From contig CAVOHZ010000010.1 of NCBI GenBank assembly GCA_963695855.1, forward strand, positions 384,001-448,000: a DNA stretch of 64,000 nucleotides, read 5' to 3'. Each line of letters opens with the position of its first letter. Position 1 is the stretch's first letter. Source of the stretch: an uncultured Nitrososphaerales archaeon (lineage in GTDB: Archaea > Thermoproteota > Nitrososphaeria > Nitrososphaerales > Nitrososphaeraceae). This document shows, piece by piece, positions 42,560-51,814 of the stretch. Below the pieces are notes generated by a model. The model ran no database searches and was not told where the DNA came from. It was given only the letters and a program-made list of their open reading frames with translations. Position numbers and translations under genes: made by a program.

Positions 42560-43436
42560 CTATCTCTTGGTGCTTTTTGCTACATACCACTTGGCAGAAG
42601 AAATTTTTTTTGAATATCTCATTTCATAATAAGGTATGAACATGTAACAATAGATGGTAGATAATCCACCAACCGGATCCTTTAAAAAACAACCAATAGT
42701 TGCTTTTAAATTCACGCTTGTTGACAGTTCTTCTCCCTTGTAAGAAGAGATCTGTCTGTGACCAGATCTCAGCTCGTAAGACTTGAGACAAAAAATCGTA
42801 AAGCGTAGATGGGGACTTGAAAAATACCTTTGCATCATCATTATACCATATCTTCTCATCTAATTCAATAAGCTTATTTTGTAAAAAAAGATCAATTGCA
42901 ATCAAATCTTCAGGGATGATTATCTTTTTTGCCAAGTCATTACGTATTGCAAGTCCTCTTCCCATTACAGTATACCTGCTCAGAGTCGATCTCCGAATTT
43001 TCCGCAACCAATTAGAAATGAATTTGGTTGCTCTGCCGTATATGTTAGAATATTTGATTGGTTGTGGATTAGAAGCACAAAGTCCGATTCCTTTTCCAGA
43101 AATGGATTTGACCAAGTTACAAGTACAGTTCTTTTCCAATCTTATATCAGCATCATAAAGAACTAGGATATCTCCACTGGATTCCCGAAATATTTCGTTC
43201 CATCCTGAAGCGGCACCCCTTCTAGTCTCTGAATGGAAAAGTCGAATAGATAGATTGCGATTTGCTATTGTAAAATCCCTTATCAAATCAGGAGTACCAT
43301 CAGAAGAGTCATCAGAAATGATTATTTCCTTTAACAGAAAGGGAACGGGAATATTTTGTGATTTTATAGAATTTAGTAAGGCAATAATATTTTTTTCCTC
43401 GTTATAAGAAATAATACCAATAGAAATTTCCTTCAT
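42560..43436 (-). pseudogene. Glycosyltransferase family 2, frameshifted near 42765
   Basis: ISYNEE, DDSSD, YDAD in ORF 42624-43436; the natural C-terminus GHRQ...WYVAKSTKR continues in the other frame (ORF 42560-42859). Confidence 0.8.
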
Positions 43437-43731
43437 TATTAATAAATCTGAAATATTATCGTAAATTTCGATAATATTAACTTTTTATAATAAGAAATAC
43501 AAAACTTCATTTTTTATAAGTCAAAATTTTTATATCTAATATTCTACTATCAAAAATAGTATTGATATATGTACGCAGAAATCCCTATAGAATTTTGATG
43601 TAATAAAATTCAAAATTAAAAAGCAATAATACTTTTACCTTTCTTAATTTTTGATATTTTAATAATTATAATTTTATATTCCTTTTAATCATTCATGTTA
43701 AAAAATAAACGCACTCTTATATATTGAAAAT

Positions 43732-45303
43732 ATGGAAAAAGGTATTATTTTTAATTTCGGAAATAAGTTCTTGATTTCAATTATTTTTCTCTCCTTATTA
43801 ATAGGTGTCCTTGGAAATGGATTGGTTTTGGGTCAAGTATTTGCAAAAGGACATAATCCACAGAATGATGTTGACACAGAAAGCATCGAAATATATCCTC
43901 TTTCATACAAGAAATCGGATGGTAATAATGTTTTTCATAATGACAAGATACTTTCATTAAAATTGCAGGAACAAAAACAAGAGAATACAGATCTCAATAC
44001 ATTATCAAAATCAAAGCAGCAAAAGATTGCTGAAAAAAACTTTGGAGAACAGGAAGATGATGCCATTATCATGAAAGGACCGGTCCATTACGAAGAAAAA
44101 GAAGATTATCAAAAAGACATGAAGAATGAAGATTATGGGTATGAAGGTAAGTACTCCAAGTATACAAGCGATGAAGAGGCAAGGGATGATAGTAACAGAG
44201 ATTCAGACATAGATACAAGCGATGAAGAGGCAAGGGATGATAGTAACAGAGATTCAGACATAGATACAAGCGATGAAGAGGCAAGGGATGATAGTAACAG
44301 AGATTCAGACATAGATACAAGCGATGAAGAGGCAAGGGATGATAGTAACAGAGATTCAGACATAGATACAAGCGATGAAGAGGCAAGGGATGATAGTAAC
44401 AGAGATTCAGACATAGATACAAGCGATGAAGAGGCAAGGGATGATAGTAACAGAGATTCAGACATAGATACAAGCGATGAAGAGGCAAGGGATGATAGTA
44501 ACAGAGATTCAGACATAGATACAAGCGATGAAGAGGCAAGGGATGATAGTAACAGAGATTCAGACATAGATACAAGCGATGAAGAGGCAAGGGATGATAG
44601 TAACAGAGATTCAGACATAGATACAAGCGATGAAGAGGCAAGGGATGATAGTAACAGAAATTCAGACATAGATACAAGCGATGAAGAGGCAAGGGACAGT
44701 AGAGATTTCGTTGATGATTCCAAAGAAAATCACTCCAATATAAATGACAAAAATCAATCAAATATAACTGAAAAATCTAATCAAGAGTTTAAAAAGATTG
44801 AAGAAGATGTAATTGAAAACGAAAATAGTAGACTAATCTCAGAAGCGAGTCAAGAAGAACAAATTTCTTCAGATATACTACCAGCAAATATCAATTCAAA
44901 AAACAAATACCATGGATATGAAATTCTTATCGCAAATGCAGGATTAGATCAATCTATATCAAAAGAAGAAAGAATAGTTCTTGATGCGTCCAATAGTTTC
45001 TCTAAAGACAATTCGATAACAGGATTTAATTGGGAACTAATTGGTGACTCAGATATTGAAATAGATCCTAGCAATCTAGAGGTCTATACAATTGATGTTC
45101 CAAATCACATGAAAGGTAATACTTTGGAATTCCAACTTACTGTAACAAATGATGATGGACTAACAGATAGCGATACAGTAAAAGTATTGATAAATGACGA
45201 ACAGGATGACGATAATGACGAACAGGATGACGATAATGACGAACAAGATGACGATAATGACGAACAAGATGACGATAATGACGAACAAGATGAAAGAAAA
45301 TAA
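43732..45303 (+). CDS. Secreted acidic tandem-repeat protein with PKD-like domain
   Basis: Signal peptide; 17-aa repeat; ANAGLDQ..IVLDASNS..FNW..FQLTVTNDDGLTDSDTV PKD signature. Confidence 0.88.
   Translation: MEKGIIFNFGNKFLISIIFLSLLIGVLGNGLVLGQVFAKGHNPQNDVDTESIEIYPLSYKKSDGNNVFHNDKILSLKLQEQKQENTDLNTLSKSKQQKIAEKNFGEQEDDAIIMKGPVHYEEKEDYQKDMKNEDYGYEGKYSKYTSDEEARDDSNRDSDIDTSDEEARDDSNRDSDIDTSDEEARDDSNRDSDIDTSDEEARDDSNRDSDIDTSDEEARDDSNRDSDIDTSDEEARDDSNRDSDIDTSDEEARDDSNRDSDIDTSDEEARDDSNRDSDIDTSDEEARDDSNRDSDIDTSDEEARDDSNRNSDIDTSDEEARDSRDFVDDSKENHSNINDKNQSNITEKSNQEFKKIEEDVIENENSRLISEASQEEQISSDILPANINSKNKYHGYEILIANAGLDQSISKEERIVLDASNSFSKDNSITGFNWELIGDSDIEIDPSNLEVYTIDVPNHMKGNTLEFQLTVTNDDGLTDSDTVKVLINDEQDDDNDEQDDDNDEQDDDNDEQDDDNDEQDERK
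44162..44696 (+). repeat. 51-bp coding tandem repeat, about 10.5 copies
   Basis: Unit encodes TSDEEARDDSNRDSDID; copies identical except one G>A in the 10th unit. Confidence 0.97.
45193..45293 (+). repeat. 21-bp coding tandem repeat, about 4.8 copies
   Basis: AATGACGAACARGATGACGAT encoding NDEQDDD. Confidence 0.95.
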
Positions 45304-45307
45304 TTAA

Positions 45308-45337
45308 TCCTAAAACCTCACTTGGAGGTTAATAGGA
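45308..45337 (+). terminator. Hairpin just after the stop of the repeat-protein gene
   Basis: TCCTA-A-AACCTC / GAGGTT-AA-TAGGA inverted repeat followed by an A/T tract. Confidence 0.3.
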
Positions 45338-45378
45338 AAATTTAAATTTTCTATATTTTTTAATTATATCGATAAAAA

Positions 45379-46527
45379 ATTCCCATACTTTATCAAAAAT
45401 ACACTGGATATTATGCGAAACTAGTATTGGAAAATGGTAAATCTTTTTCTGGGACAGGATTTGGTTATCCCATGCCGAGCTCTGGTGAAGTCGTTTTTAA
45501 TACAGGAATGGTTGGATATACTGAGAGTTTAACGGATCCATCTTATAGTGGTCAAATATTATGCATGACCTACCCTCTTGTTGGCAATTATGGAGTCCCA
45601 CAGAAAGACATTTTAGATGAATTTGGTTTACCCAAATTTTTCGAGTCAGAAAGAATACAGGTCAAAGGATTGATAATTCATTCATTATCAAATATAGCAA
45701 GTCATTGGAGTTGTGTAAAAACACTAGATGAATGGTTATATGAAGAAAAAATTCCGGGAATATACGGAGTTGATACAAGAGAACTGACAAAAATAATACG
45801 CCAAAAGGGAGTAATGATGGGAGTTTTATCCGTCTCTGAAAAACCACTTCAAAAAATAGACATATCTCAAATTGTTAAAAATGAGGATTATGACAATAAA
45901 AATTTCATGTCTACAGTAAGTTCCAATGAAATTAGAACGTATGGCAATTCCAACGAAAAGATTATTGTATTATTAGATACAGGAACTAAGTATAGTATTA
46001 TTAGAAATTTACTGAAGAGGGGTTATAGGGTAGTACAACTTCCTTGGAATTCATCGTATGATAAAGTAATATCTTACGATCCAGATGGGGTTGTAATTAG
46101 TAACGGTCCTGGAGATCCAAAGATGTGCAATGCAACAATCGAGACGGCAAAAAAATTGCTAGATAATTCAATTCCAACACTTGGTATATGTCTTGGCAAT
46201 CAGATTTTGGCCCTATCAGCAGGAGCAGACACGTATAAATTAAAATATGGTCACAGGGGACAAAACAAATCATGTATAAATATTAAGAATGAAAATTCCT
46301 ATATCACCAGTCAAAACCATGGATATGGAATAGAAGCCAAAAGTCTAGAAAAGACGGGATTCGAGCCATGGTTTTATAATCCAGATGACAAATCTATAGA
46401 GGGTATAATACATAAAGATAAACCTGCAATAGCCGTACAATTTCACCCAGAGGCATCACCAGGACCTTTTGATTGTACATTTGTTTTTGATAAATTTAAA
46501 GAAATTATTAATTTAAATAAGAGATAA
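45379..46527 (+). CDS. carA: Carbamoyl-phosphate synthase small subunit (start uncertain: ATT 45379 or TTG 45427)
   Basis: AKLVLENG, GEVVFNTGMVGY, SNGPGDP, GICLG, QNHG, QFHPEA. Confidence 0.95.
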   Translation: MPILYQKYTGYYAKLVLENGKSFSGTGFGYPMPSSGEVVFNTGMVGYTESLTDPSYSGQILCMTYPLVGNYGVPQKDILDEFGLPKFFESERIQVKGLIIHSLSNIASHWSCVKTLDEWLYEEKIPGIYGVDTRELTKIIRQKGVMMGVLSVSEKPLQKIDISQIVKNEDYDNKNFMSTVSSNEIRTYGNSNEKIIVLLDTGTKYSIIRNLLKRGYRVVQLPWNSSYDKVISYDPDGVVISNGPGDPKMCNATIETAKKLLDNSIPTLGICLGNQILALSAGADTYKLKYGHRGQNKSCINIKNENSYITSQNHGYGIEAKSLEKTGFEPWFYNPDDKSIEGIIHKDKPAIAVQFHPEASPGPFDCTFVFDKFKEIINLNKR

Positions 46528-46586
46528 AAATTACCATATTAAACCTATATAAAAAAAATGTAAAAATAGAGTGAGAGGTGAAAATA

Positions 46587-49500
46587 ATTCCAAGAAATAA
46601 TGATATAAAAAAAGTTGTTCTGTTGGGTAGTGGGGCAATAAAAATCGGAGAAGCAGGCGAAAGTCATTAGAAGATGACCGCTAATTTGATTACTCTGGTT
46701 CACAATGCCTCAAAGCTCTGAAGGAGGAGGAAATTGAAACAGTTCTAATTAATCCCAATATTGCTACTATTCAGACGGATACCAGGTTTTCTGATAAAGT
46801 ATATCTTTTGCCTATAACTCCTGATTATGTTTCCAATATTTTAGAAATTGAAAGACCAGATTCTATAATGCTATCATTCGGGGGACAAACTGCCCTAAAC
46901 TGTGGTACATCATTATTCAAAAACGGAATTCTTGATAAATACGGAATAAAAGTCCTTGGAACACCAATTAACGGAATAGAAAGAACTGAAGATAGACAAC
47001 TTTTCAAAGAGGCCATGCAGACAAGTAATGTTCCTGTATTACCTAGTTCTCCAGCATATTCTGTTGAAGAATCAATTCATATTGCAAAAAAAATTGGTTA
47101 TCCTGTAATCATTAGGGTTGCATACACTCTCGGAGGAAAGGGAGGAGGAGTTGCCTATAACGAATATGAATTACAAGAGATAGTACATAGAGGCCTTTCA
47201 GTCAGTATGACCGGTCAAGTTTTAATAGAAAAATATGTTGGTAATTGGAAACAAATAGAATACGAAGTAATGCGAGATTATAAAGGAAATTCTATAATTG
47301 TTTGCAATATGGAAAATATTTTGGCTATGCGAGTTCATACAGGGGATAACATTGTAGTGGCTCCATCTCAGACTCTTAATAACTACGAATATCATATGTT
47401 GCGTTCTGCAGCGATCAGAGCAACAAAAGAAGTAGGTATTATTGGTGAGTGTAATATTCAGTTTGGACTCGATCCGAAAAAAGAGGAATATTGTGCAATA
47501 GAGATAAATGCAAGACTCTCTAGATCATCGGCACTTGCTAGCAAAGCAACTGGATATCCGCTAGCATATATGGCTGCAAAATTGGGTTTGGGATATTCAC
47601 TAAACGAGTTAGTAAATAAAGTTACCAAGAAAACTACTGCATTTTTTGAACCATCTTTAGATTATGTAGTAGTAAAGATGCCTAGATGGGATTTTAATAA
47701 ATTTGAGAATGTTAACCGTAGACTCGGAACTGCTATGAAATCAGTTGGAGAAGTAATGGCTATTGGAAGAACTTTTGAGGAATCAATTCAAAAAGCAATA
47801 AGAATGTGTGACATTGGAAAGAAAGGACTGGTTGAAAACTATGAATTCAATGAGCCCAACGAAGAAGAGTTAGAAAATATTGAACACGCACTTTTGTATC
47901 CCGATGACAACATCCTTTTTGACGTTGTGAGAGCAATATACAGCGGTATCACCATAGAAAAGATAAATGAATTATCCAGCATAGATCCATGGTTTCTTGT
48001 CAAAATAAAGAACATAATAGACATGGAAAGAAGGTTGAAAAATTCGGGAAATGATTTTGATGAAAGCCTCATAAAAGAAGCTAAACAAGCAGGGTTCTCT
48101 GATATACAATTATCTTCTTATTTAAAATTGGATGAAATAACAGTTAGAAAACTTAGGAAAAAATTTGGAATACAACCAGTCATAAAACAGATTGATACCT
48201 TGGCTGCCGAATGGCCTGCTCAAACTAATTATCTTTATCTTACCTATGGTGGTGATACCGATGATATCAAAATTAGAAAGAAAGATAAGAATGCAATAGT
48301 TCTGGGAGCAGGTCCGTATAGAATTGGAAGTAGTGTAGAATTTGATTGGGGTACTGTTAATATGGTTAGAGGTTTGAAAGAAAATGGAATAAATGAAGTA
48401 TCAATAATAAACTGTAATCCCGAAACAGTTTCTACAGACTTTGATATTTCTGACCGGTTATACTTTGAGGAGATTACCTTTGAAAGAGTTATGGATATTT
48501 ATGAAAAAGAAAATGATGCTGAAATAGTAACCTGTGTGGGCGGTCAAACTGCTAACAATCTAACGTTAAAACTGGCCCAAAATGGAGCAAAAATAATAGG
48601 AACAGAAAGCAAAGATGTGGACAGGGCTGAAGACAGAGAAAAGTTTGGGAAATTACTTGATTCATTAAAGATTAAACAGCCTCCTTGGAAAAAATTTACA
48701 AGTCTAGATGAGGCAATTATCTTTTCTCAAGAGGTAGGATATCCCGTGCTTGTGCGACCGTCATATGTATTAAGTGGAGCAGCAATGAAGGTAGTATGGG
48801 ATGACAAACAGTTGGAAATATTTATAGAAAATGCCACAGAGGTCAGCCCGGATCATCCAATAGTTATTAGTAAGTTCTTTCAAGATGCTGCAGAAGTAGA
48901 GGTGGATGGAGTAAGCGGGAAAGACAAAATAATTATTGGATCCATTATAGAACACATAGACAACGCCGGAATACATTCAGGTGATGCGATGATGTGTATA
49001 CCTCCATGGAGATTAAATAGGGATATAATGGATACAATAACAGGCTATTCAAATAAAATAGTCAAATCTCTCAATGTCATTGGACCATTTAACATTCAGT
49101 TTCTTGTAAAGAATGACGAAGTACTTGTAATCGAGGCAAATATCAGGGCATCAAGGTCAATGCCTTTTGTTTCTAAATATGTAGGGATAAATCTGATGAA
49201 TCTTGCCGCAAAAGCGATGTTAGGTAAACCTCTACCAGAGATAAAGGATGTATGGTTGAAAACCAGCGGCTTTGGTATTAAAGTACCTCAATTCTCTTTT
49301 ATGCAACTAGAAGGTGCCGATATAGTTTTAGGTGTAGAGATGCATTCTACTGGAGAAGTTGCGTGTTTTGGAACAAGCTTTTATGATGCTCTAAGTAAAG
49401 CCTTCCTAGCCGCAGGATATTCGCTGCCGTTACGTGGAACTTCTTTAATCACAATAGGAGGCCAAAAAAATAAGGAAAAATCACTTCCTCTTCTGTCTTT

Positions 49501-49882
49501 GATTTCGTCAATGGAATTTAATATTTTAGCGACAGAACATACTGCTGACTTTTTGGAAAATAATGGTTTTAACGAAGTCCAAAGGGTTTATAAAATAAGT
49601 GAGCCTGACAGGAAACCAAACATCACAGAATTACTGTATGATCATAAAATTGATTTTATCATAAATATTCCTGCAACTGTAACTGTGGAAAAATATTTGG
49701 ATATGTTAAATGATGAATACCATATAAGGAGGAAAGCGGTCGAGATGGGTATTCCGGTAATGACAACTATTGAGGCAGCAATATCGTTTGTAAAAACGTT
49801 ACAATGGCTCAAAAGCAATGCTCCAACAATAGTTCCATTGAAGAATTACTTAAAAGAAAACTCAATCAGTGAAAAAAATTAG
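46587..49882 (+). CDS. carB: Carbamoyl-phosphate synthase large subunit, join(46587..46661,46685..49882), about 1090 aa
   Basis: Exon 1 PRNNDIKKVVLLGSGAIKIGEAGE; exon 2 FDYSGSQCLKALKEEEIETVLINPNIATIQTD, in frame with ORF 46808-49882 (HTGD, EINARLSRSSALASKATGYP, MGS domain). Start ATT 46587 (after SD GAGGTGA) or GTG 46578. Confidence 0.93.
46662..46684 (+). other. 23-nt bulge-helix-bulge pre-mRNA intron in carB
   Basis: AGTCATTAGAAGATGACCGCTAA; central helix GGCG/CGCT, bulges AAA and AAT, inner stem GTCAT/ATGAC; removal restores GE-FDY. Confidence 0.85.
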
Positions 49883-49891
49883 TGAAACTTT

Positions 49892-50674
49892 TCAATTCTT
49901 TACATCACCTATAACAGAACCTTCCAAAGTAAATAGCAGTCCGGATAAAATTGCATTTTGTTCTAAAAATAATTTAATAATTGGAGAGGGAGAAGATGTC
50001 GATTTCTTAAACTTGTGGGTTGATACCAGAGAGGAGTAAAAATATTTGTTAAATGTTGGAATAATTATAATCTCCAAAATTCCCTTCTTTTTCAATCCAT
50101 AAAGAATTTCTTTTTTTACCTTAAGATATATCCATACTCTCTTTCCATGAACGGTACTCTTTGGATCTATAAATATAGGATGAAGATGACCCATTATTAT
50201 CTTGCTAATATTTGATTTTATTTTATTTGGAAGAGTATGACCGTGTATTAACAAAGTATCGTCAATAATAAGTCCACTAGTGTTGCATGTAATCACTGAT
50301 TCCGGAACGAGTAGGTGAATATTTCCATCGTGGTTTCCAGGTATTAAGAAGACATCTAGATCTTTTGATAATTTATCCAAAAAATAAGGAACAATATCCC
50401 ATTCAATTTTGGTAATATGAGTGATGGAGCTCTTGAGGTCTCCTAAAATTATAATTCCATCTATTCTTTGAGATTTTCTTATTTCGTTAATCTCATCTAA
50501 AATATCATTTACTATTTGATTTGAATCAATGTTAATTCCCTTCTGAATTAGAGAGGATTCAAATCCCAAATGAAGATCTGATACTACAATGAATATTTTT
50601 TTTTTATTTTCCCTTTTATCGATGTACTCCAAAATAAGAGCTGCATGAGGATTTATAGGATATGCCTTAGTCAC
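49892..50674 (-). CDS. Calcineurin-like metallophosphoesterase
   Basis: SDLHLG, LGD, GNHD, HGH, GHLHP. Confidence 0.92.
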   Translation of the reverse strand: MTKAYPINPHAALILEYIDKRENKKKIFIVVSDLHLGFESSLIQKGINIDSNQIVNDILDEINEIRKSQRIDGIIILGDLKSSITHITKIEWDIVPYFLDKLSKDLDVFLIPGNHDGNIHLLVPESVITCNTSGLIIDDTLLIHGHTLPNKIKSNISKIIMGHLHPIFIDPKSTVHGKRVWIYLKVKKEILYGLKKKGILEIIIIPTFNKYFYSSLVSTHKFKKSTSSPSPIIKLFLEQNAILSGLLFTLEGSVIGDVKN

Positions 50675-50974
50675 AACATAAATATAATGATACTTGATCT
50701 ATTAATTATTTTACTCGATATTCTATAAAACTAAAAAATGTCTTCCTTTGACATCTTTCAATAGATTGTAGTTGATTAAATGTGAATAAATGTTTTTTTA
50801 TTGATTAATATTTATGCTAAGATACTGAAAAATGGCACAGTTACATTCCAGATTATAATAAAGTATGTATTTATCTTGTAAATATTAAAGAATAATCTGT
50901 AAATACAAAATATTTAATGATTCTATCAAGATATCGATTTATAAATAAATTAGTGATTTTATTATGTAATTTAT

Positions 50975-51814
50975 ATGATCATTAGCGGAGTCGAAGTCTC
51001 GACCAAATTAAAATCTGAATTAATACAAAAAGTTAAAATTCTGAAGAAAAAAGGAATTGATCCGTGTTTAGCTACCATTTTGGTGGGCAATGATCAGGCT
51101 TCTGCAATTTATATTAGAAATAAACATAAAGCCTGTTCTGAATTAGGAATTAAGACGAAAGACAAGACGATGCCATCTTCAATTGAAGAAGAAAAACTGA
51201 TCGAATTGATAAATTCATTAAACAATGATCTATCTGTTCATGGAATATTATTACAGTTACCTCTTCCCAGTCATATAGATCAATTCGAGGTAATAAATAA
51301 AATTAAACCTACAAAAGATGTTGATGGATTAACATACCAAAATGCAGGATTACTATTAAACAAAAAATCATCTTTGATACCCTGCACACCTCTAGGAGTT
51401 ATGGAATTATTTAATTACTACAAAATAGAACTAAAAGGAAAAGATATCGTAATAATAAATCGAAGTATTCTAGTTGGAAAACCACTTTTATTGCTGTTAT
51501 TGGAGAAGGATGCAACCGTAACAATATGTCATTCAAAAACTAGAAATTTGGAGCTAAAATTGAGAAGGGCAGATATAATAATCACTGCAGTTGGAAATAG
51601 AAAACTTTTTACTCTAAAACCAGAACATGTTAAAGAGGATGTAGTGATAATTGATATCGGAATATCAAGAGAAAATGGAAAGATAATCGGTGACACAGAT
51701 TTTGAAAAAGTTGCACCAAAAGCTTCTTGGATAACACCAGTTCCAGGAGGAGTTGGTCCAATGACTATTACAATGTTATTAAACAACACTATAAAAGCTG
51801 CATCAAATTTTTAG
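50975..51814 (+). CDS. folD: Methylene-THF dehydrogenase/cyclohydrolase
   Basis: GILLQLPLP, KDVDG, PCTP, RSILVGKP, TPVPGGVGPMT. Confidence 0.97.
   Translation: MIISGVEVSTKLKSELIQKVKILKKKGIDPCLATILVGNDQASAIYIRNKHKACSELGIKTKDKTMPSSIEEEKLIELINSLNNDLSVHGILLQLPLPSHIDQFEVINKIKPTKDVDGLTYQNAGLLLNKKSSLIPCTPLGVMELFNYYKIELKGKDIVIINRSILVGKPLLLLLLEKDATVTICHSKTRNLELKLRRADIIITAVGNRKLFTLKPEHVKEDVVIIDIGISRENGKIIGDTDFEKVAPKASWITPVPGGVGPMTITMLLNNTIKAASNF

What the first reader, a model, noticed from the sequence alone, without database searches (positions are those of the whole stretch)
46643..46699. Candidate bulge-helix-bulge (BHB) intron inside the carB mRNA
Seen in sequence: the conserved CarB N-terminal motif LGSGxIxIGxAxEFDYSG is split exactly between E (GAA, 46659-61) and F (TTT, 46685-87) by 23 extra nt, AGTCATTAGAAGATGACCGCTAA. 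The locus folds as GGCG (46656-59), 3-nt bulge AAA, stem GTCAT, loop TAGAAG, stem ATGAC, CGCT (46679-82, pairs with GGCG as a 4-bp central helix), 3-nt bulge AAT, closed by an imperfect exon-exon helix (ATCGGAG/CTCTGGT). Established: the archaeal splicing endonuclease EndA cuts after the 2nd nt of each bulge in BHB or relaxed BHL motifs. That rule removes exactly 46662-46684 and gives GGC GAA TTT GAT TAC (G-E-F-D-Y) and an intact protein of about 1090 aa. Both frames are blocked inside the insert (TAG 46668-70 in the exon-1 frame; TAA 46682-84 in the exon-2 frame), so a single ribosomal frameshift cannot rescue the gene. The rest of carB and carA show no decay. Archaeal BHB introns are mainly known from tRNA/rRNA, with crenarchaeal cbf5 the classic protein-coding case. 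Inference: an EndA-spliced mRNA for a central nitrogen enzyme (pyrimidine/arginine supply) in an ammonia oxidiser, possibly a splicing-gated switch, since unspliced RNA yields only a 27-aa peptide. Annotation pipelines would call carB truncated or a pseudogene.
Basis: partly seen in the sequence, partly recalled or inferred. Interest (0 to 1): 0.95.

Follow-up and report, generated by a model that had tools for sequence, protein, structure and literature searches.

The report
tRNA-type intron inside archaeal carB
The only gene for the large subunit of carbamoyl-phosphate synthase in this ammonia-oxidising archaeon is interrupted by a real 23-base intron of the kind archaea normally cut out of tRNAs; many relatives carry it at the same spot and soil RNA lacks exactly those bases, so a core metabolic mRNA is spliced.

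Summary
Confirmed. The 23-nt insert (46662-46684) splits the genome's only carB after Glu25 and blocks both frames; removing it restores a 1090-aa CarB. A same-site insert of 17-52 nt occurs in 95 of 146 parsed carB loci (79 distinct sequences), almost all from the window's order, Nitrososphaerales. They keep the 4-bp central helix and intron stem with compensatory changes, and all 40 frame-preserving ones carry a stop. Synonymous exon sites that build the fold are frozen only where the intron is present. Two RNA-library contigs lack exactly these 23 nt and match a sister genome whose DNA has them. Best reading: a relaxed bulge-helix-bulge mRNA intron, cut by EndA and joined by RtcB; enzyme identity is inferred. 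A regulatory switch is not shown: the intron state changes at least 7 times on the tree. Closest known case: the crenarchaeal cbf5 intron. I found no paper on a carB intron (7 searches). This scan noted it before on other DNA (e1-6508612, e1-2594751, e1-3172232). Public protein records for the gene are truncated or carry wrong N-termini.

The parts
45427..46527 (+). carA, small subunit of carbamoyl-phosphate synthase, intact 366 aa
   Evidence: PF00988, PF00117
46575..46580 (+). Shine-Dalgarno-like site upstream of the likely ATT start; holds an in-frame GTG at 46578
   Evidence: role inferred
46587..46661 (+). carB exon 1, 25 codons from a likely ATT start, equal to E. coli CarB residues 1-25
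   Evidence: aligns 1-24 to 1bxr_A 1-24; 64% identity to intact relatives
46644..46650 (+). exon-exon outer helix, 5' strand
46656..46659 (+). central 4-bp helix, exon strand
46660..46662 (+). 5' 3-nt bulge; predicted cut between 46661 and 46662
46662..46684 (+). 23-nt intron: stem 46663-67, loop 46668-73 (TAG stop at 46668-70), stem 46674-78, central-helix strand 46679-82, TAA stop at 46682-84
46683..46685 (+). 3' bulge or loop; predicted cut between 46684 and 46685
46693..46699 (+). exon-exon outer helix, 3' strand
46685..49882 (+). carB exon 2, 1065 codons, all CPSase large-chain domains present

Best explanation
The insert is an obligatory mRNA intron of the archaeal tRNA type. The carAB transcript folds around carB codon 25 into a relaxed bulge-helix-bulge motif, braced by an exon-exon helix. 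The (alpha-beta)2 splicing endonuclease EndA cuts after the second base of each bulge, releasing 23 nt, and RtcB joins the exons, giving a 1090-aa CarB. Stop codons or a frameshift inside the intron keep unspliced RNA from making a long CarB. Shown: insert, fold conservation, single gene copy, RNA lacking exactly these bases in a sister species. Inferred: that EndA cuts and RtcB ligates, the ATT start, and an early gain in the order followed by repeated loss. The intron most likely persists as a tolerated, constitutively spliced element.
For: Single carB in a 99.87% complete genome that also has two carbamoyltransferase genes and amoA; exon 2 differs from sister genomes mostly by synonymous codons (23:2 and 29:3 in 250 codons). 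Insert present in all 22 loci of the genus (own genome included) in which both flanks were read. 95 of 146 parsed loci have it (4 of 150 unparsed), 79 distinct, 17-52 nt. Central-helix pairs kept in 64, 79, 79 and 79 of 79; intron-stem pairs 1-4 in 79, 79, 78 and 74 of 79, shuffle maxima 69, 68 and 61 for pairs 2-4. On 18 chosen sequences 94.4% of cells pair and 31 change on both sides, 0 of 500 shuffles reach this, slid controls 25-49%. Exon third positions in the helices are near-fixed in 92 intron-bearing loci (Gly24 GGC 89, Tyr28 TAC 92, Gly21 GGA 86) and free in 25 intron-less ones of the group; control sites do not differ (1.89 vs 1.90 bits). All 40 distinct 3n introns hold an in-frame stop, against 2 and 12 in the other frames and a shuffle mean of 19.4. 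Five more distant same-site introns have 4/4 central helices, three of them with other letters. RNA runs X5 and X7 each give a contig with a 23-nt gap at the site; its 8 listed differences all match genome G019, whose DNA has the identical intron. endA (TIGR00324, above cut-off) and rtcB are present.
Against: RNA evidence is from assembled contigs, not raw reads; X5 and X7 belong to one study; no matched DNA run was laid and the tool did not give the joined form in other runs. Run X8 holds an unspliced contig identical to the window, which may be precursor or DNA. The outermost central-helix pair is a G-A mismatch in 15 of 79 introns. The 3' site is not a canonical bulge. The beta-like EndA gene of this genome is itself split by a frameshift at an A run, so a working enzyme needs recoding or another arrangement. 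Kin are not independent, so the shuffle and Fisher figures overstate significance.
Confidence: 0.92

Rival explanations
1. The intron is real and also works as a regulatory switch: the spliced fraction changes with growth state or nutrient supply and so gates carbamoyl-phosphate synthesis through EndA/RtcB capacity. This adds to the best explanation; it does not replace it.
For: Kept across many families with an obligatory stop or frameshift; sits 25 codons into the gene; an unspliced contig exists in one RNA run; a negative-regulator role was proposed for the cbf5 intron (PMC2738675, section 8).
Against: At least 7 and at most-parsimonious 11 changes of state on the tree; 74 of 150 listed order-level matches are intron-less (hand count); loop sequence and length vary freely, with no conserved ligand-binding element seen; gapped contigs carry most of the local depth in X5 and X7 (14.2 of 17.3, 6.93 of 9.73), though contig depth is a poor measure. 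The stop is equally explained by selection against faulty protein.
Confidence: 0.2
2. The gap in RNA contigs is a reverse-transcriptase skip over a hairpin, or comes from an intron-less strain; the insert is handled in some other way, such as ribosomal bypass.
For: The insert is a hairpin and RT can skip hairpins (PMC8240250, passages). Intron-less carB exists elsewhere in the order. Only contigs were available.
Against: RT skips were reported with direct repeats of 3-16 nt in 35 of 57 cases; here the repeat is 2 nt, and 0-3 nt across all 79 introns. The gap coincides with the cut sites predicted from the fold. The contig matches G019, which has the intron, and none of the 22 readable genus loci lacks it. 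Bypass would not need a 4-bp helix with 3-nt bulges kept at fixed spacing.
Confidence: 0.06
3. carB is a pseudogene or assembly artefact, or the functional protein is the N-terminally truncated or wrong-start product that gene callers predict.
For: Databases hold a 1024-aa product for this very gene, and 110 of 120 top hits have a foreign N-terminus read through the intron.
Against: Same-site insert in 95 loci from independent assemblies; exon 1 is conserved as protein and equals E. coli residues 1-25; purifying selection on exon 2; no second carB; in the window the exon-2 frame has a stop directly before Phe26.
Confidence: 0.02

Closest known systems
cbf5 pre-mRNA intron of Desulfurococcales and Sulfolobales (PMC2738675; passages and all of section 8 read)
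   Same: Short (16-44 nt there, 17-52 here), inside a coding sequence at a conserved motif, relaxed BHB cut between the second and third bulge bases, variable interior, patchy presence with secondary loss, missed by annotation.
   Different: Host gene is a central metabolic enzyme, not an RNA-modification enzyme; host lineage is Nitrososphaerales; falls between codons, not inside a catalytic codon; every 3n version carries a stop; scattered same-site and near-site introns occur in distant lineages. EndA cleavage was shown for cbf5, not here.
BHB intron in the 5' UTR of Haloferax volcanii HVO_1309 mRNA (PMC7714728; passages read)
   Same: mRNA substrate of the splicing endonuclease.
   Different: Lies in the 5' UTR, not the reading frame; halophile enzyme type.
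Non-canonical (HBh', BHL) introns of archaeal tRNAs cut by (alpha-beta)2 EndA (PMC5829648; passages read)
   Same: Same relaxed motif; the paper lists the (alpha-beta)2 type for Thaumarchaeota.
   Different: Substrate is an mRNA and the exon-side helix is built from synonymous codon choices.

Membership tests
Archaeal BHB (EndA/RtcB) intron | 4-bp central helix between exon and intron | tested here: met
   4/4 in the window; 64 of 79 distinct introns 4/4, the other 15 with one terminal mismatch; compensatory changes
Archaeal BHB (EndA/RtcB) intron | Splice sites after the second base of 3-nt bulges flanking the helix | tested here: met
   Rule gives 46662-84, which restores the frame and equals the gap in RNA contigs within a 2-nt ambiguity
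Archaeal BHB (EndA/RtcB) intron | Strict canonical form: both bulges closed directly by helices | tested here: not met
   Intron side closed by a covarying stem; exon side has a 3-4 nt bulge or loop before a 7-bp helix. Fits the relaxed class described in PMC5829648
Archaeal BHB (EndA/RtcB) intron | Removed from the RNA in vivo | tested here: met
   Two RNA-library contigs (one study) lack exactly 23 nt and match intron-bearing G019; contigs only, no raw reads or matched DNA
Archaeal BHB (EndA/RtcB) intron | Host encodes EndA able to cut relaxed motifs, and RtcB | tested here: inconclusive
   Catalytic-type endA (184 aa) and rtcB (493-aa frame) are open; the beta-like gene is split at an A run; the specificity loop was not examined
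Archaeal BHB (EndA/RtcB) intron | Cleavage by EndA and ligation by RtcB shown biochemically | not testable with these tools
   needs in vitro assay or knock-down
Mobile BHB intron with homing endonuclease | Endonuclease gene within or beside the intron | tested here: not met
   Intron is 23 nt; five neighbouring ORFs are carA, a PKD-repeat protein, a phosphoesterase, FolD and a glycosyltransferase; no PF14528 match in the genome; other endonuclease families not searched
Described RNA family (Rfam) | Match to a curated model | tested here: not met
   0 matches at E up to 1 in 43000-51000

The most novel reading that the evidence does not exclude
carB splicing is a regulated checkpoint: pyrimidine and arginine supply in ammonia-oxidising archaea is gated by EndA/RtcB capacity, and in part of this genus the endonuclease's structural subunit is itself made only by slippage at an A run, giving a two-step recoding cascade; carB is one of many overlooked spliced mRNAs and a repeated target of intron gain across archaea.
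Probability: 0.15. Interest if true: 0.93.

Novelty: new member of a known kind. Interest (0 to 1): 0.8.

Why it matters
The papers I could read name cbf5 as the only archaeal coding sequence with a confirmed spliced intron (PMC7714728; PMC2738675). A second gene family, in core nitrogen metabolism and shared across ammonia-oxidising archaea with cultured mesophilic relatives, shows mRNA splicing is not a crenarchaeal curiosity. It makes EndA necessary for CarB production and makes questions of intron gain, loss and regulation testable. It also means many CarB records for these organisms are wrong at the N-terminus (110 of 120 top hits).

Tried and rejected
Second carB copy: none; tblastn gave only two weak ATP-grasp hits. 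Assembly artefact and pseudogene: rejected. Single ribosomal frameshift: both frames stop inside the insert. Homing endonuclease near the site: not found; a motif check on the flanks of five distant same-site loci and L184 flagged none, but flanks were short and no HMM was run. Other mRNA introns in this genome: a motif scan gave 110 candidates joining open frames, carB second by coding score; the rest were not tested for homology and none looked convincing by eye; the scan misses mismatched helices and stop-less 3n introns. RNase HII and cbf5 matches lie in open frames here. Rfam: nothing. Metagenome pattern scan: 119 stretches, only 3 were carB introns, the rest did not parse as carB; the G439 row is a pattern artefact. 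Loose ends in X5, X8 and X9 that run from exon 1 straight into exon 2 fit spliced relatives but could come from intron-less lineages, so they are weak. Run shares were not used as habitat evidence. A role of Glu25 in the carbamate tunnel is recalled only; searches did not confirm it. Look-up of earlier findings by sequence returned nothing. Literature searches without a carB intron report: 30 of 39 listed; 0; 2; 0; 11 of 12; 25 of 167; 15 of 177; subscription journals are mostly outside the library and no supplements were opened.

Full report
Observation. The window shows carA (45427-46527) followed by carB. The carB frame opens at about 46587, aligns to E. coli CarB residues 1-24, and is interrupted after Glu25 by 23 bases (46662-46684) before Phe26. 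The exon-1 frame stops at TAG 46668-70 and the exon-2 frame at TAA 46682-84. Of 50 placements of a 23-nt deletion only three equivalent ones restore the motif, giving 1090 aa. Exon 2 has all CPSase domains and aligns directly after residue 25 or 28 of two intact relatives. It is the only carB in the 3.55-Mb genome, which is 99.87% complete and has amoA and two carbamoyltransferases. A random genomic 23-mer would give the helix plus a 5-bp stem in 0.015% of draws.

Distribution. Of 30 loci from 41 related genomes, 28 parsed at first pass and all had an insert at the same codon boundary, including all 22 readable loci of the genus. Adding 80 named GTDB loci and 40 stretches I picked (26 with, 14 without), 146 of 150 loci parsed: 95 with insert, 51 without, 79 distinct inserts of 17-52 nt. 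Named carriers include Nitrosopumilus, Nitrosarchaeum, Nitrosotenuis, Nitrosotalea, Cenarchaeum, Nitrososphaera, Nitrosocosmicus and Nitrosopolaris records; Bathyarchaeia, bacteria, a Nitrosocaldus record and several Nitrosopumilaceae lack it. In 401 genomes of the order 335 matched the site pattern; of 150 listed rows 76 have an insert and 74 do not (hand count; 189 rows not shown; inserts over 30 nt are missed). Outside the order, 2 of 95 matching genomes of the phylum have a same-site insert, and 3 of 119 metagenome stretches were further same-site carB introns. On a tree of 138 exon-2 proteins the state changes at least 11 times, 7 forced by well-supported branches. The tree cannot tell gain from loss; an early gain with repeated loss is my inference, because the outgroup rows lack the intron.

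Structure is what is conserved. Across the 79 distinct inserts the four central-helix pairs are kept in 64, 79, 79 and 79 cases, with two compensatory U-A for C-G changes, and intron-stem pairs 1-4 in 79, 79, 78 and 74, above every one of 2000 shuffles for pairs 2-4. An 18-sequence alignment gives 94.4% paired cells and 31 double-sided changes, against 25-49% for slid registers; the structure was drawn from one of these sequences, which favours it. All five distant same-site introns have 4/4 central helices, three of them using other letters matched to their own exon codons. In 92 intron-bearing loci the third positions of codons in the helices are near-fixed, while in 25 intron-less loci of the group they vary freely; downstream control sites do not differ; the exon-exon duplex averages -10.4 against -4.2 kcal/mol. 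All 40 frame-preserving inserts contain an in-frame stop, using TAA, TAG or TGA at several positions; the nine stop-less inserts all shift the frame. These counts include close kin and overstate significance, but the pattern spans many families.

RNA. Four of 22 listed runs were laid. In X5 and X7 (one study) a contig of 348 aligned letters with 9 differences lacks exactly 23 nt at the site. The 8 differences that were listed all match genome G019, as does the upstream loose end, and G019's DNA carries the identical intron. X8 holds an unspliced 152-nt contig identical to the window. X5, X8 and X9 also have contigs of more distant relatives running from exon 1 directly into exon 2. Limits: contigs only, no matched DNA, no count of the joined form elsewhere. 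A reverse-transcriptase skip is unlikely, since the terminal repeat is 2 nt here and 0-3 nt in all 79 introns, whereas such artefacts were described mostly with repeats of 3-16 nt (PMC8240250, passages).

Mechanism. The genome encodes a catalytic-type EndA, a beta-like subunit and RtcB, and PMC5829648 (passages) places the (alpha-beta)2 enzyme in Thaumarchaeota and states that this type cuts relaxed motifs. I infer cleavage after 46661 and 46684 and ligation by RtcB (0.92 for a spliced BHB-type intron). One complication: the beta-like gene is split by a -1 shift at an A run in this genome and in 9 of 21 genus loci, and open in 12. A regulatory role is possible (0.2) but unshown; frequent absence in relatives argues that the intron is dispensable. 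No homing endonuclease was found beside it here.

Comparison with what is known. It works like, and by every testable feature but the strict two-bulge form belongs with, the EndA-type mRNA intron of cbf5 (PMC2738675; passages and section 8). PMC7714728 (passages) names cbf5 as the only earlier mRNA case and adds a 5' UTR intron. Passages of PMC13149111 and PMC12397907 added no further mRNA case. Seven searches showed no report of a carB intron; several lists were cut, subscription papers are mostly absent and supplements were not opened. PMC2738675 mentions that putative introns in other protein genes had been predicted; I did not see those papers. Databases do not model the intron: the window's gene is held as a 1024-aa truncated protein, and of 120 top hits 110 have an N-terminus read in the wrong frame through the intron, 9 are intact and 1 is truncated (one intact row was mis-sorted by my filter and is corrected here). 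This scan's earlier notes describe the same intron on other DNA; they are unchecked leads, and my verdict rests on the calls above.

Verdict. A real, conserved, spliced mRNA intron in a core metabolic gene: new member of a known kind, apparently not in print. Interest 0.8.

Noticed in passing
L032:1190-1812 (G000:C3, A run near L032 1430-1440): The EndA beta-like gene is split by a -1 shift at a run of 9-11 A in 9 of 21 genus loci (own genome included) and open in 12. Candidate transcriptional slippage or programmed frameshift in the splicing endonuclease itself.
   Followed up: partly
L184:1456-1477 (= L104; record titled Aenigmatarchaeota): A different 22-nt insert in carB, inside codon 18, seven codons upstream of the site studied here, with a 4-bp helix, two 3-nt bulges and a 5-bp stem; removing it by the same rule restores the motif (read by hand). 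Suggests an independent gain.
   Followed up: partly
L188, L189, L225, L264, L273: Same-site carB introns of 19-40 nt in other lineages (two outside the window's order, three from unplaced metagenome contigs), each with a 4/4 central helix and an in-frame stop.
   Followed up: partly
window 46575-46592 and relatives: carB often lacks an ATG/GTG/TTG start: none found in 52 of 92 intron-bearing loci against 6 of 25 intron-less ones; CTG, ATT and ATA stand at the Met1 position. May be a clade effect.
   Followed up: partly
G055:C141:560-585: Intron-less carB that still has the codon choices typical of intron carriers, as expected after a recent precise loss.
   Followed up: no
window 43732-45303: 523-aa ORF just upstream of carA with about a dozen tandem 14-residue acidic repeats, a PKD-like domain and a second short repeat at the C-terminus.
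   Followed up: no
L059: Record titled Heimdallarchaeota, but its carB and intron nest inside Nitrosopumilaceae; probably a mis-binned contig.
   Followed up: no
P0001-P0120: In lineages where the exon-2 frame is open across the intron, gene callers produce CarB with a spurious 17-22 residue N-terminus.
   Followed up: yes
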